IMG/VR virus record: IMGVR_UViG_3300037067_011169
Location: 1 to 64,000 of that record
Length of the DNA stretch: 64,000 nucleotides
DNA from: a virus
Taxonomy: Duplodnaviria; Caudoviricetes
Direction: 5' to 3' (one strand)
The stretch's first letter is position 1. Each line of letters begins with the position of its first letter. Shown one piece after another: positions 695-39,568 of this stretch. The position numbers were made by a program, and so were the translations under genes. The notes beneath the pieces are model-generated. The model made no database searches. It saw only the letters and a list, made by a program, of their open reading frames with translations, and was not told the origin of the DNA.

Positions 695-770
695 GCGCTC
701 GTGGCCTAGTCCGGTTTAAGGCGCTGGATTGTCGATCCAGAAATCGCGGGTTCAAATCCCGCCGGGCGCG
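695..770 (+). tRNA. tRNA-Asp(GTC)
   Basis: acceptor GCGCTCG/CGGGCGC, anticodon arm CTGGA-TTGTCGA-TCCAG, T arm GCGGG-TTCAAAT-CCCGC, G73; no encoded CCA. Confidence 0.92.
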
Positions 771-779
771 CCTTCATTG

Positions 780-852
780 GCGCTCGTAGCTCAGGGGATA
801 GAGCAGCCGACTTCTAATCGGCGGGTCGCAGGTTCGATTCCTGCCGGGCGTG
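780..852 (+). tRNA. tRNA-Arg(TCT)
   Basis: GCGCTCG acceptor, GCCGA-CTTCTAA-TCGGC, GCAGG-TTCGATT-CCTGC. Confidence 0.92.
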
Positions 853-867
853 CTTTCGGGCGTGCTG

Positions 868-940
868 GCGCTTGTAGCTTAATGGCCAGAGCAAAGCACT
901 TTTAATGCTGAGGTTCCGGGTTCGAGTCCCGGCAGGCGCA
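868..940 (+). tRNA. tRNA-Lys(TTT)
   Basis: GCGCTTG/CAGGCGC acceptor, AGCA-CTTTTAA-TGCT, CCGGG-TTCGAGT-CCCGG. Confidence 0.92.
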
Positions 941-17108: not shown

Positions 17109-17798
17109 TTACTCCCATGTCTTTAGGTTCTTGACGCCTCTTCGTATGAGTCGCACAATGGCCAGGGCGTCTTCCAGGGCGGTATGAGCGACGACGTTAT
17201 CCATGCTTGCCCGTTCATAGCAGGTTTTGCTACCTGGCAGTGCAGTGTCTTCTGGCAACCAGAAGAAAGCGGATGGATCAATCACGCGATGTCGAAAATG
17301 GACCCTCTCTTTGAATTCAGGAACTCGATAGAGAAAGGGCATGTCAAAGGTGCCAAAGTTCTTCCCTGCCGCCTGGACATCAAATGGGTCAACGTCAACG
17401 TCTTTCAGCCAGTAGTGAAAGTCCTCACCAAGGTCCTCTGGATCGGTTGTCTGGCCTCCCTCGATCATTCTCAGCAGAGCACAATTCATCGCCAGGGCGT
17501 GGGGTTCGCCCTGGAGACGGTCATACTTGAGGATCGCGTGAAAGGTTTGTAGTTGGGATATGGGCCGTTTCCAATCATCGAAAACAGCCGCCATCTCTAG
17601 GACCTGGCAATAGTCTGGATCAAGTCCTGTTGTCTCCGTATCGATGCTCACGTAGGGGCAAGCCGGTGGTGTGGCCGGAACACTGGGTTCCGTTACGCCA
17701 TCCGACATGAATCCATGCCATTGGCATTGGGGACAGTCTCCGGTGATCTCCCCGGTTGGAACCAAGGCGGCTTCACAATGAGGACACAGCTTTTTCAT
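17109..17798 (-). CDS. DEDDh 3'-5' exonuclease with N-terminal Zn ribbon
   Basis: IDTETTGLD, NFGTFDMPFL, HTALEDA; CPHC...CPQC; ATGA overlap with Ro60. Confidence 0.88.
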   Translation of the reverse strand: MKKLCPHCEAALVPTGEITGDCPQCQWHGFMSDGVTEPSVPATPPACPYVSIDTETTGLDPDYCQVLEMAAVFDDWKRPISQLQTFHAILKYDRLQGEPHALAMNCALLRMIEGGQTTDPEDLGEDFHYWLKDVDVDPFDVQAAGKNFGTFDMPFLYRVPEFKERVHFRHRVIDPSAFFWLPEDTALPGSKTCYERASMDNVVAHTALEDALAIVRLIRRGVKNLKTWE

Positions 17799-19384
17799 CG
17801 GATGAAGTCCGCCATCACAGCCGGGCAGGACGAATCGAACCCGACCACATCCAGCATCCCTGCATCCTTCGGGTCAGCGATAGTGAACTCGGTGGCCGTC
17901 ATGCCAACAACGATCAGTTTCGCGTCACGGCCGCTTCGGTGACGATACTCACGAAGCGCTTGGCTCGGGTGGATTCGACCGGCCCAGGTTTCGTTGTCGG
18001 TGTAGACGATGAAGGTATCAACGTCCAGTTTGTGCTCGACGGCGTACAGCATCGGGAGCGAACAATCCGTCCCTCCGAATGAGATGCGCGACATGGCATT
18101 GGTGACTTCCGACAATGAGGCGTTTCGGGTGACGTTGAATGGGATGAGTCGGTTGGAGAAAGCGACCATCTGAGTGTTCGGTTCAACCCGATTCGTGACC
18201 ATCGCCATGCAAGCCGATCCTTCCCTGGCGCTGATATTGCTATCACACAAAGGACCAGTCATCGAACCCGACACGTCGAGCGCCAACAAATGATTCTTTC
18301 CGGTGGGCGTCACAAGCTGGAAGGACGCATAGAAGGCGTCTTCCAACGCCGCTTGAATCTGCTGCACCGGCGACCAACACAGGGAGCCGCGAAAACCATG
18401 ACCGCCGCTGTACGTCTTGAGTGCAGTGAGCAAACCAAAGGGGTGAACTCTCGCAGCCTTGAGTCGATCAAGGTTCCCGAGGAAGTCACACACGTACTTT
18501 GATCCGGTGGACAAAGGCTTGAGCAGGCCGACACTGGTCATCTTTCCCAGATTGCGAATCAGCGCCGTCGGCGGCAAGTTCGGGAGGAGGGCTTCCCAAA
18601 TGGCAGGACTGCCGAGTAGTGTGTTGGGGACGTGTTCCAACGTGAGATCGTAGTCTCGAATGAGGTCAATGGCGAATGCCTCTTCAAGACCTGGCGAATT
18701 GAGTTTCTCGAATCCATAAACCGTGCGCAGTTCGGACGAGACGAATCCCTCGGGCATAGTGCCTTGAGTCAGCCAGTGATACAAGGCATTATGACCCATA
18801 TCAACTGCCTTGGGATGACTGAGCCTGAGCGCGTCCCTATGGGTGTAGCCGACTCTGCTTCGATACTTCGTGGTCTGATAGGCCAACTTCTCCAGCGGCT
18901 TGTCGTTGTACCAAGCGGCCACTGCCTCCCGAAGACCTCGTCCCCACCCTCTGAGTTCCTTGCAGTTGGCAATGAACGTGAAGAGGTGGGTCGGGATTCT
19001 GCACACTCTTGGCATGGCCTCCAGGGCTACGCGCCGCACTTCCGGTGATTCATGGCTGGCGAGTAAGGCAAGCGCAAAGATGGCGGGATCATTCTTGGGA
19101 GCCTTGTTGTTTTCGCTGACATCGACGATTGTCGAGATCGTCTTCTCCAGGTCCTCGTTGGCGCAGTCGATGACAACCTTGGCATTCGCTTGAGTGAGAG
19201 GCCGTTCTTTCACGTAGTACGTTCCGCCAGCGCTTCCCAGGACAAGGAATCGGTACAAACGATGCCAGATGTCCAGCACATAGCTGAATCCTCCAGCATT
19301 GTTCATCTGCTGATTGGTTCCTAGGATTGGCTCAGACTGTGGAGTAACGCGAGTCGAAACATGCTTGGCGAGAACGGCACACAT
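17795..19384 (-). CDS. rsr: Ro60/TROVE RNA-binding protein
   Basis: TPQSEPI...NNAGGF, RFLVLGS, KYRSRVGYTHRDALRLSHP, ALIRNLGKM, ARVHPF, C-terminal vWA DVSGSM and YTDNET; GGAGG 8 nt before ATG 19384. Confidence 0.95.
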   Translation of the reverse strand: MCAVLAKHVSTRVTPQSEPILGTNQQMNNAGGFSYVLDIWHRLYRFLVLGSAGGTYYVKERPLTQANAKVVIDCANEDLEKTISTIVDVSENNKAPKNDPAIFALALLASHESPEVRRVALEAMPRVCRIPTHLFTFIANCKELRGWGRGLREAVAAWYNDKPLEKLAYQTTKYRSRVGYTHRDALRLSHPKAVDMGHNALYHWLTQGTMPEGFVSSELRTVYGFEKLNSPGLEEAFAIDLIRDYDLTLEHVPNTLLGSPAIWEALLPNLPPTALIRNLGKMTSVGLLKPLSTGSKYVCDFLGNLDRLKAARVHPFGLLTALKTYSGGHGFRGSLCWSPVQQIQAALEDAFYASFQLVTPTGKNHLLALDVSGSMTGPLCDSNISAREGSACMAMVTNRVEPNTQMVAFSNRLIPFNVTRNASLSEVTNAMSRISFGGTDCSLPMLYAVEHKLDVDTFIVYTDNETWAGRIHPSQALREYRHRSGRDAKLIVVGMTATEFTIADPKDAGMLDVVGFDSSCPAVMADFIR

Positions 19385-19450
19385 CGTATGACCCTCCAAT
19401 AATGGTAGATGATGGTCCTGGTCAGTCCCGGTAAGTCTCGATCAAAGGTA

Positions 19451-19513
19451 TCGGGCAAAGGATGTTGATTGGTGTTCGTAATAATGATGGATAACCAATC
19501 AGCGTCGGCCCGA
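19451..19513 (-). ncRNA. minimal Y RNA (element E)
   Basis: TCGGGC-CGAC-GC-TGATTGG-TTATC-loop-CCAATCA-ACATCCTTT-GCCCGA; directly upstream of Ro60. Confidence 0.8.
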
Positions 19514-19515
19514 AG

Positions 19516-19613
19516 AGGGGATGGGAGGACTCGAACCTTCGATAACCGTCTTCATTCGACCCTCTCGGGTAAGTTAAGAAAACGGGTGCTCAAACCAACT
19601 GAGCTTCATCCCC
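19516..19613 (-). ncRNA. tRNA-scaffolded Y RNA (element A)
   Basis: acceptor GGGGATG/CATCCCC, D and T arms; anticodon arm replaced by CCGTTTTC..CTT-ACCC-GAGA-GGGT-CGAAT-GAAGACGG-TTATC. Confidence 0.8.
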
Positions 19614-19619
19614 AACGTG

Positions 19620-19910
19620 TCATGTGTTTTCTTTGTCGGCTTGATGCCGTAATCCTTCGATCTTGTCTGCGAGTTCATCCATCTCATCGAGCCGGCGCAA
19701 GACAATCACGGCCTCTTTGTCATACACAGTTTGGATCGTCCCGTCGTACATGAGATGGAATTGTTTCAGGAGAACATCCATCAGGCGCTCGGCGTAGTCG
19801 AGATAGAGGCCGATCGAAGACTGATCGTCCAGGCAATTGATCTTCCGATACAGTTCCTGTTCGATGCGACCTAACTCAATCGCGCGATTCATTTCGAGGA
19901 TTCGACTCAT
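19620..19910 (-). CDS. hypothetical acidic helical protein inside the Y RNA cluster
   Basis: GGAG SD, ATG ORF between elements B and A. Confidence 0.7.
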   Translation of the reverse strand: MSRILEMNRAIELGRIEQELYRKINCLDDQSSIGLYLDYAERLMDVLLKQFHLMYDGTIQTVYDKEAVIVLRRLDEMDELADKIEGLRHQADKENT

Positions 19911-19950
19911 GTTGATCTCCCATGATCTCCCATGATCTTCTATGTTACAG

Positions 19951-20074
19951 TCACACCAGCAGGACTCGAACCTGCGACATCAAGTTCCTTAGATAACGTT
20001 GGTCTACGACCCGAATCGGGTAAGAGTCGATCAACGCATATTACTTGCGCTCTAGCCAACTGAGCTATGGTGTG
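19951..20074 (-). ncRNA. tRNA-scaffolded Y RNA (element B)
   Basis: CACACCA/TGGTGTG, D arm, CAAGT/ACTTG, GCAGG-TTCGAGT-CCTGC; 57-nt insert with CGTTG..CTT-ACCCG-ATT-CGGGT-CGTA..CAACG-TTATC. Confidence 0.82.
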
Positions 20075-20077
20075 AGG

Positions 20078-20141
20078 TGCGGGCAAGTGAGTTGCGATGG
20101 GGAAAATCTTAGCTGGATAACCCATAGCAGTTCGGCCCGCA
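20078..20141 (-). ncRNA. minimal Y RNA (element D)
   Basis: TGCGGGC-CGAAC-TGCTATGGG-TTATC-pyrimidine-rich loop-CCCATCGCA-ACTCACTT-GCCCGCA. Confidence 0.8.
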
Positions 20142-39447: not shown

Positions 39448-39568
39448 GACGACCGACAGGACTCGAACCTGCATCACCCGCTTAAATGGCGATAACGCTG
39501 TCCAGTCGGCCCAGAGGGGCAAGAAGCGGACAGCAGTATTAGGTGCTCTGCCGTTAAGCTACGGTCGT
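39448..39568 (-). ncRNA. tRNA-scaffolded Y RNA (element C)
   Basis: ACGACCG/CGGTCGT, D and T arms; insert GCTGTCC-GCTTCTT-GCCC-CTCT-GGGC-CGACT-GGACAGC-GTTATC. Confidence 0.8.

What the first reader, a model, noticed from the sequence alone, without database searches (positions are those of the whole stretch)
19451..20141. Two minimal phage Y RNAs with the animal-type UUAUC motif
Elements E (19451-19513) and D (20078-20141) fold as lower stem GGGC, CGA(A/C) opposite YUU, a 7-9-bp upper stem ending in GG, a loop opening with UUAUC, then the return strand. As I recall, human Y1 and Y4 read GGUCCGA..GUG(A/G)GUUAUC with CUUGAC or UUUGAC, and nematode sbRNAs share UUAUC. Element D reads GGGCCGAAC..AUGGGUUAUCCAG. 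Upper stems differ in sequence between D and E yet both pair. They lack the tRNA-like domain of YrlA, so they look more like animal Y RNAs than described bacterial ones.
Basis: partly seen in the sequence, partly recalled or inferred. Interest (0 to 1): 0.9.

Follow-up and report, generated by a model that had tools for sequence, protein, structure and literature searches.

The report
Two hairpin Y RNAs beside phage Ro60
Two 63-base hairpins just upstream of a phage's Ro60 gene are real members of a large, conserved family of small Ro60-partner ("Y") RNAs found in phages and bacteria. The family shares a loop motif with animal Y RNAs, but Y RNAs of this general kind were already known.

Summary
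Both elements exist as described, on the minus strand: D at 20141-20078 and E at 19513-19451, upstream of an rsr/Ro60 gene.

A covariance model built only from hairpins of other phage rsr loci finds exactly these two in the whole 87-kb phage genome (43.8 and 38.1 bits). The same model finds 93 elements in 50 of 71 phage rsr loci, 72 in 51 of 80 bacterial rsr loci, and 10 in five of six cultured actinophage and Agrobacterium phage loci tested. Every hit lies on the rsr strand. All 15 base pairs covary (95.8% paired, against 35-46% in slid controls). UUAUC is nearly invariant.

Rfam's nematode stem-bulge (Y-homologue) model hits E at 27 bits, and two relatives exceed its curated cut-off. The vertebrate Y_RNA and YrlA models do not hit D or E.

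The reading needs three corrections:
- Each hairpin lies 2-3 nt from a tRNA-like element.
- Hairpin-only Y RNAs are already published (YrlB, Yrn2, Thermus phage phiLo Yrl1/2).
- UUAUC often pairs with a downstream GAUNA to present a 7-nt, anticodon-like loop.

Most likely D and E are Ro60-bound Y RNAs cut out of an operon transcript. This scan has found similar Y RNA arrays on other DNA. The elements are new members of a known kind; the prokaryotic UUAUC conservation appears unreported.

The parts
20078..20141 (-). Element D: hairpin Y RNA. Lower stem, CGAAC, 9-position upper stem, UUAUC loop with an AUC/GAU mini-stem and the 7-nt loop CAGCUAA.
   Evidence: R1 hit at 20079-20140, 43.8 bits, E 2.7e-9. 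MFE -22.8 kcal/mol, z -3.0. Begins 5 nt after the stop codon of the upstream ORF.
19451..19513 (-). Element E: hairpin Y RNA. Lower stem, CGAC, 9-position upper stem, 22-nt loop opening with UUAUC.
   Evidence: R1 hit, 38.1 bits, E 9e-8. Rfam RF01656 27.1 bits, E 0.0034. MFE z -3.7. Counterparts sit 2 nt after a tRNA-like element in L001, L004 and L062, and directly after one in L002 by sequence inspection.
19951..20074 (-). tRNA-like element 1, with a 57-nt insert in the anticodon-loop position that holds a loop-closed Y module. It starts 3-4 nt after D.
   Evidence: Rfam tRNA 50.2 bits. Insert read. Subject of sibling note e1-5798639.
19516..19613 (-). tRNA-like element 2, with a 28-nt insert holding a Y module. 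It ends 2 nt before E.
   Evidence: Rfam tRNA 44.2 bits. Folds as an independent domain next to E.
17795..19384 (-). rsr/Ro60 gene. The likely start is the ATG at 19384, with a GGAGGG ribosome-binding site at 19391-19396. E ends 66 nt upstream of that ATG.
   Evidence: Pfam vWA_Ro60 6.5e-68 and TROVE 2.7e-35. PDB matches: human RO60 6e-124, Xenopus Ro60 2e-121, D. radiodurans Rsr 3e-113.
17109..17798 (-). DEDD-type (RNase_T family) exonuclease gene overlapping the end of rsr; a possible effector of the RNP.
   Evidence: Pfam RNase_T 2.2e-6. PHROG 192, 3.4e-19. The same gene follows rsr in L004.

Best explanation
D and E are genes for small hairpin Y RNAs, the non-coding partners of the phage's own Ro60 (Rsr) protein.

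Proposed mechanism:
1. They are transcribed as part of a long minus-strand operon. D starts 5 nt after an upstream stop codon, and E lies 54 nt before the rsr ribosome-binding site.
2. They are most likely released by the enzymes that process the flanking tRNA-like elements. RNase P cutting at the 5' end of tRNA-like 1 would make D's 3' end. 3' processing after the discriminator base of tRNA-like 2 would make E's 5' end.
3. The bulged lower helix, with its GNCGA 5' strand, is the Ro60 docking site.
4. The 9-bp upper stem positions an apical element that begins with the invariant UUAUC. In much of the family this element pairs with a downstream GAUNA to present a 7-nt loop.
5. Lacking a tRNA-like effector domain, D and E would act like YrlB or Yrn2. 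They would be compact Ro60 ligands that gate or stabilise the ring, or recruit a partner through the apical element.

Shown here: sequence and structure conservation, covariation, strict strand and locus linkage to rsr.
Inferred: expression, processing sites, Ro60 binding and downstream function.
For: - Rsr identity is established by Pfam.
- R1, built from 13 hairpins of other loci, finds only D and E in the window and genome.
- R1 finds 93 hits in 50 of 71 viral rsr loci, all on the rsr strand. Of these, 85 are upstream (median 304 nt) and 8 just downstream.
- R1 finds 72 hits in 51 of 80 bacterial rsr loci, all on the rsr strand.
- R1 finds 10 hits in cultured phages, all on the rsr strand.
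- Covariation: 95.8% of cells paired against 35-46% in slid controls; 15 of 15 pairs with double changes; 0 of 500 shuffles reach the observed score.
- The CG of the docking motif is near-invariant (C 91/95, G 94/95). This fits the published GNCGAAN0-1G Rsr motif (PMC4201824) and the CGAA motif whose mutation weakens phage phiLo Ro60 binding 3-4 fold (PMC12135203).
- There is a constant 2-nt gap between the tRNA-like 3' end and the hairpin in the window, L001, L004 and L062.
- Published precedent: bacterial Y RNAs are processed from polycistronic precursors together with tRNAs (PMC4201824).
Against:
- D and E each deviate by one position from the strict published motif. D has a 2-nt spacer before the upper-stem G, and E reads CGAC.
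- No promoter or terminator of their own was detected, so a purely cis role within the mRNA cannot be excluded.
- The experimentally validated phage hairpins (phiLo Yrl1/2) are not detected by R1, so binding is inferred by motif, not by membership of a tested family.
Confidence: 0.85

Rival explanations
1. Cis-acting leader elements. E in particular would be a Ro60-binding site in the 5' UTR of the rsr-exonuclease mRNA, giving autogenous feedback on translation or stability, rather than (or in addition to) a free small RNA.
For: - E ends 54 nt before the rsr ribosome-binding site, with no terminator or promoter between.
- In 16 of the 85 upstream hits the hairpin ends within 60 nt of the rsr match start, some within 3-20 nt.
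Against: - Most family members lie hundreds of nt away, 8 lie downstream of rsr, and many sit between tRNA genes.
- D is separated from rsr by a tRNA-like element, an ORF and another tRNA-like element.
- Characterised bacterial Y RNAs co-transcribed with rsr accumulate as free RNAs (PMC4201824).
Confidence: 0.15
2. Decoys or mimics of tRNA anticodon arms. The apical UUAUC/GAUNA stem would present an anticodon-like 7-nt loop that engages tRNA-directed enzymes (modification enzymes, anticodon nucleases, repair enzymes), with Ro60 as carrier.
For: - In 128 unique family loops, 42 have a 7-nt apical loop (shuffled 6.2 +/- 2.5).
- Of those, 29 fit Y-U-NNN-R-N (shuffled 0.42 +/- 0.65, maximum 4 of 500).
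- D has an AUC/GAU stem with the 7-nt loop CAGCUAA.
Against: - D has A where U33 should be, and only a 3-bp stem.
- E has a 12-nt loop and no such arm.
- Only about a quarter of family members fit the signature.
- UUAUC is invariant rather than covarying, which a plain stem would not require.
Confidence: 0.2
3. Animal-type function. UUAUC would mark a role like that of vertebrate Y RNAs and nematode sbRNAs in starting DNA replication.
For: - UUAUC at the 5' end of the loop is the motif needed for sbRNA activity in replication assays (PMC4726728, PMC4450293).
- Rfam RF01656 matches family members.
Against: - The linkage is to rsr, on its strand, in bacteria and phages that lack the eukaryotic replication machinery.
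- The upper-stem RUG/CAY motif essential in vertebrates occurs in only 14/95.
Confidence: 0.03
4. Chance hairpins, or decayed by-products of duplicated tRNA-like Y genes without function.
For: Both carry one mismatch in the upper stem and deviate slightly from the strict published docking motif.
Against: - E-values of 1e-8 to 1e-9 with a model that excludes them.
- Related hairpins in corresponding positions beside tRNA-like elements in loci whose Ro60 is only 56-65% identical, with compensatory changes.
Confidence: 0.02

Closest known systems
Bacterial hairpin Y RNAs: YrlB (S. Typhimurium, M. smegmatis) and Yrn2 (D. radiodurans); Chen et al. 2013/2014, PMC4201824
   Same: - Encoded within a few kb of rsr on the same strand.
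- Long stem formed by the 5' and 3' ends, with the GNCGAA-type Rsr motif.
- No full tRNA-like domain.
- Made from polycistronic precursors together with tRNAs or other Y RNAs.
   Different: - Those RNAs were found by immunoprecipitation and 'eluded bioinformatic discovery'.
- No conserved UUAUC or conserved 3' strand was reported for them.
- I could not obtain their sequences to test them against R1.
Thermus phage phiLo Yrl1/Yrl2; NAR 2025, PMC12135203
   Same: - Phage-encoded hairpin Y-like RNAs upstream of a phage Ro60.
- CGAA in a bulge.
- Shown to bind the phage Ro60 (Kd about 17 nM) and, with it, host PNPase.
   Different: - R1 finds nothing in the phiLo Ro60 locus.
- No CGAA-N10-UUAYC arrangement is present there.
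- phiLo Ro60 is only 28% identical to this one.
YrlA (Rfam RF02553), the tRNA-like Y RNA
   Same: - Same docking stem.
- A conserved UA follows the stem's 5' strand: consensus CUAC in Rfam, and 23UA24 forms a kink in the crystal structure (bioRxiv 10.1101/312249).
- Some R1 hits (19 of 72 bacterial) are YrlA-type, with a T-loop in the 'loop'.
   Different: - D and E have 19-22-nt loops instead of a T-arm/acceptor/D-arm domain.
- RF02553 does not hit them.
Nematode stem-bulge RNAs (Rfam RF01656) and vertebrate Y RNAs (RF00019)
   Same: - Lower stem with a bulged C-G-purine motif.
- 9-bp upper stem with G-C pairs at both ends.
- UUAUC opening the loop.
- 3' internal loop of the ACCAACUUG type (consensus shown).
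- E scores 27.1 bits. Relatives score 26-40 bits, two of them above the 38-bit cut-off.
   Different: - No hit to RF00019.
- No 3' oligo-U tail.
- Embedded in an operon rather than made as stand-alone transcripts with an oligo-U end.
- The replication motif RUG/CAY is not conserved.
- Loops are much shorter.

Membership tests
Prokaryotic/phage Y RNA (Rsr-associated ncRNA) | Encoded within about 4 kb of rsr on the same strand | tested here: met
   D lies 694 nt and E 66 nt upstream of the rsr ATG, same strand. All 175 family hits in other loci are on the rsr strand.
Prokaryotic/phage Y RNA (Rsr-associated ncRNA) | Stem formed by the 5' and 3' ends, carrying the GNCGAAN0-1G Rsr motif on the 5' strand | tested here: met
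   The stem is confirmed with covariation. The GCCGA core is present in both. D has a 2-nt spacer and E reads GCCGAC, so each is one position off the strict pattern.
Prokaryotic/phage Y RNA (Rsr-associated ncRNA) | Bound and stabilised by Ro60/Rsr; accumulates as a discrete small RNA | not testable with these tools
YrlA (RF02553) | tRNA-like T-arm / acceptor hairpin / D-arm domain enclosed by the docking stem; score at or above 69 bits | tested here: not met
   No RF02553 hit on D or E at E<=10. Their loops are 19 and 22 nt.
Nematode sbRNA ceN72-3_ceN74-2 (RF01656) | Score at or above the 38-bit gathering cut-off | tested here: not met
   E scores 27.1 bits and D has no hit. Two relatives pass (L022 40.4, L054 38.5) and ten more score 26-38 bits.
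Vertebrate Y RNA (RF00019) | Match to the Rfam model; upper-stem RUG/CAY; 3' oligo-U | tested here: not met
   No hit at E<=10. RUG/CAY occurs in 14/95 of the family. D happens to have AUG/CAU. There is no U tail.
Hairpin family defined here (model R1) | 6-bp lower stem, CGNN, 9-bp upper stem, UUAUC, 7-8-nt 3' internal loop ending YUU | tested here: met
   D 43.8 bits and E 38.1 bits, full-length model matches 1-62.

The most novel reading that the evidence does not exclude
UUAUC would not be an animal speciality tied to DNA replication. It would be an ancient part of the Ro60 RNP, shared by phages, bacteria, nematodes and vertebrates. It would form the invariant 5' strand of an apical arm that sits at the junction with the docking stem, contacted by Ro60 or by a partner, and that in many members displays an anticodon-like loop. 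The phage and bacterial hairpins and the animal Y/sbRNAs would then be true homologues that travelled together with Ro60. This phage's Ro60 scores slightly higher against human and frog Ro60 than against D. radiodurans Rsr.
Probability: 0.3. Interest if true: 0.75.

Novelty: new member of a known kind. Interest (0 to 1): 0.5.

Why it matters
D and E themselves add two more Y RNAs to a phage Ro60 locus, which is ordinary.

The family they belong to is more useful.
- A simple model now finds the hairpin-type Y RNAs that earlier work could detect only by immunoprecipitation. It finds them in about two thirds of the phage and bacterial rsr loci sampled.
- It finds them in cultured Streptomyces, Mycobacterium, Gordonia and Microbacterium phages. 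In Mycobacterium phage I3 and Microbacterium phage SM23 some hits lie under small annotated 'hypothetical protein' genes.
- The near-invariance of UUAUC in organisms without eukaryotic replication machinery suggests its primary role is in the Ro60 RNP. That makes the function of this long-noted animal motif testable in simple phage-host systems.
- Phage Ro60-like proteins have also been linked to counter-defence (Bas63 gp130, PMC11482910) and to capture of host PNPase (PMC12135203).

Tried and rejected
- MAFFT alignment of D and E alone, and of 33 hairpins, misaligned the 3' strands. I therefore seeded the model with 13 hairpins of identical geometry.
- A loop-independent descriptor scan was too noisy to measure UUAUC conservation without bias. 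It served only to list natural variants (UUACC, UUCUC, UUAUU, UUAAC).
- R1 and a motif scan on the Thermus phage phiLo Ro60 locus found nothing.
- RF02553 on the phage's own genome only matches tandem true tRNAs at 718-892, the known dimeric-tRNA artefact. The control genomes gave no loci, so YrlB and Yrn2 could not be tested against R1.
- Two Wolin-lab reviews (PMC10870794, PMC6047535) are not held, and no paper was found for PDB 9NEN.
- No sigma-70-type promoter and no minus-strand terminator was found around the elements.
- ORF 19620-19910 has no Pfam or PHROG match and no tblastn relative in any fetched locus.

Full report
LOCUS. All relevant features lie on the minus strand. ORF 17795-19399 carries TROVE and Ro60-vWA domains. 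Its likely start is the ATG at 19384, behind a GGAGGG ribosome-binding site. It matches solved human RO60 (6e-124), Xenopus Ro60 (2e-121) and D. radiodurans Rsr (3e-113). A DEDD/RNase_T-type exonuclease gene overlaps its end.

In transcription order, the region upstream of rsr holds:
- element D (20141-20078);
- a tRNA-like element with a 57-nt insert (20074-19951; Rfam tRNA 50 bits);
- a 96-codon ORF with no relatives found;
- a second tRNA-like element with a 28-nt insert (19613-19516; 44 bits);
- element E (19513-19451), followed by rsr.

The host record is an 87.3-kb uncultured virus contig, estimated 83% complete.

OBSERVATION. Each has a 6-7 bp G+C-rich lower stem, then CGA(A/C). The upper stem has nine positions, eight of them paired, and ends in GG. 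The loop opens with UUAUC, and the 3' internal loop ends in YUU. They fold better than shuffles (z -3.0 and -3.7). They remain separate domains when folded with their tRNA-like neighbours.

FAMILY. The Ro60 protein retrieved 71 viral contigs. A motif scan showed many similar hairpins upstream of rsr in them. I built covariance model R1 from 13 hairpins of identical geometry taken from other loci, excluding D and E.
- R1 finds D (43.8 bits) and E (38.1 bits) and nothing else in the window or the genome.
- In the 71 viral loci it finds 93 elements at E<=0.01 in 50 loci, every one on the rsr strand. Of these, 85 are upstream (median 304 nt from the rsr start) and 8 just downstream.
- On the model-guided alignment 95.8% of cells are paired, against 35-46% when partners are slid. 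All 15 pairs have changes on both sides, and no shuffle reaches the observed covariation. This alignment is fitted to the model, which favours the structure. The slid control and the strand asymmetry do not depend on that fit.
- R1 also finds elements in five cultured phages: Streptomyces phages Karimac (54 bits) and Jada, Gordonia phage Sixama, Mycobacterium phage I3 and Microbacterium phage SM23. It found none in Agrobacterium phage Atu_ph07.
- It finds 72 elements in 51 of 80 bacterial rsr loci, again all on the rsr strand. These come from Myxococcota, Chloroflexota, Armatimonadota, Gemmatimonadota and others. Nineteen carry a T-loop and are YrlA-type.

UUAUC. In the 95-row alignment UU is invariant, A occurs in 88/95, U in 84/93 and C in 89/93. 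Bacterial hits behave the same way. The seeds were chosen with UUAUC, so the model favours it. Even so, strong hits with the variants UUACC, UUCUC, UUAUU and UUAAC are recovered, so the conservation is not forced.

COMPARISON WITH RFAM.
- At E<=10 on the 900-nt region, E hits the nematode stem-bulge family RF01656 (27.1 bits; cut-off 38). D hits nothing relevant. Y_RNA RF00019 gives no hit. YrlA RF02553 touches only a T-arm.
- Across 37 viral loci at curated thresholds, two hairpins pass RF01656 (40.4 and 38.5 bits) and no YrlA hit passes.
- In nine loci at E<=1, ten R1 hairpins score 26-38 bits on RF01656.
- The RF01656 consensus shown shares several features with the family: the bulged lower stem, a 9-bp upper stem ending GGG, UUAUC, and a 3' internal loop of the ACCAACUUG type.
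- The vertebrate upper-stem RUG/CAY motif is not conserved in this family (14/95).

WHAT UUAUC DOES HERE. Within the loops, the UC of UUAUC tends to pair with a GA 7-9 nt downstream, and the helix often extends to UUAUC/GAUNA. Among 128 unique loops, 42 have a 7-nt apical loop (shuffled 6.2 +/- 2.5). Of those, 29 fit the anticodon-loop signature Y-U-NNN-R-N (shuffled 0.42 +/- 0.65).
- D has an AUC/GAU stem with the 7-nt loop CAGCUAA, with A in place of U33.
- E has only UC/GA around 12 nt.

Because UUAUC is invariant rather than covarying, pairing alone does not explain it. In YrlA a conserved UA at the equivalent position (Rfam consensus CUAC) forms a kink between the docking stem and the tRNA-like domain (bioRxiv 10.1101/312249). 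A junction or recognition role is therefore the most economical reading. This is inference.

CONTEXT AND PROCESSING. D starts 5 nt after the stop codon of the upstream ORF. E lies 54 nt before the rsr ribosome-binding site. No sigma-70-type promoter and no minus-strand terminator is detected. This argues for one long transcript. The gap between the tRNA-like 3' end and the following hairpin is 2 nt in the window, L001, L004 and L062. Hairpins that precede a tRNA-like element end 3-8 nt before it. About one fifth of family members abut a tRNA-like arm. Published work shows bacterial Y RNAs being cut from precursors shared with tRNAs, and shows RNase P acting on a YrlA (PMC4201824). Processing by the tRNA-maturation enzymes is thus plausible, but it is not shown here.

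WHAT IS KNOWN.
- Chen et al. 2014 defined the GNCGAAN0-1G motif, found YrlA in 254 bacteria and 22 phages, and noted hairpin Y RNAs (YrlB, Yrn2) that escaped homology searches.
- In 2025 two hairpin Y-like RNAs upstream of Thermus phage phiLo Ro60 were shown to bind that protein and, with it, host PNPase. R1 does not detect them.
- A full-text search for UUAUC together with Y RNA returned only animal-related papers.
- Earlier reports of this scan have repeatedly found Y RNA arrays beside phage Ro60 genes.

D and E are therefore new members of a known kind. The family model, the prokaryotic conservation of UUAUC and the recognition by a nematode sbRNA model appear to be unreported in what I could read. 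Two key reviews were not available.

VERDICT. The elements are very probably Ro60-bound hairpin Y RNAs. 'Minimal' is fair for the hairpins, but they sit directly beside tRNA-like Y elements and are probably cut from the same transcript. 'Animal-type' is fair as a description of shape and motif. It is not evidence of animal-type function.

Noticed in passing
window 17795-19384 (-): This phage's Ro60 scores slightly higher against solved human (417 bits) and Xenopus (409 bits) Ro60 than against D. radiodurans Rsr (382 bits).
   Followed up: no
L075 2065-2479 (Mycobacterium phage I3); L076 2317-2466 (Microbacterium phage SM23): R1 hairpin hits lie inside small annotated 'hypothetical protein' CDSs (I3 genes 241 and 242; SM23 XPK38709). 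These CDS calls are probably non-coding Y RNA genes.
   Followed up: partly
L074 4522-4943 (Gordonia phage Sixama): Rfam finds a full-length tmRNA (88 bits) just downstream of the Ro60 gene, in a stretch where the record lists no feature.
   Followed up: no
window 19912-19939: A 10-nt unit (GATCTCCCAT on the plus strand) is repeated about 2.5 times in tandem directly upstream of the 96-codon ORF, supplying its GGGAG ribosome-binding site. The ORF has no relative in any fetched locus.
   Followed up: partly
window 39448-39568 (-): A third tRNA-like element (Rfam tRNA 40.6 bits) lies 20 kb from rsr, with a loop-closed Y module followed by GUUAUC in the anticodon-arm position. R1 does not detect such permuted modules.
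   Followed up: partly
window 718-892 (+): The Rfam YrlA model gives sub-threshold hits (30.5 and 23.2 bits) across tandem true tRNA genes. This is the dimeric-tRNA artefact that Chen et al. 2014 warned about.
   Followed up: yes
L010 1298-1413: A wcaG RNA motif (56 bits, above its cut-off) sits between two hairpin Y RNAs in another phage rsr locus.
   Followed up: no
L071 2230-2353; L011 2411-2532: Classical YrlA-topology RNAs in other phage loci also carry GGUUAUC or GAUUAUC right after the docking stem's 5' strand, yet score below the Rfam YrlA cut-off (L011: 45.6 bits against a cut-off of 69; L071: no YrlA hit at the gathering threshold). The Rfam model therefore misses much phage diversity.
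   Followed up: partly
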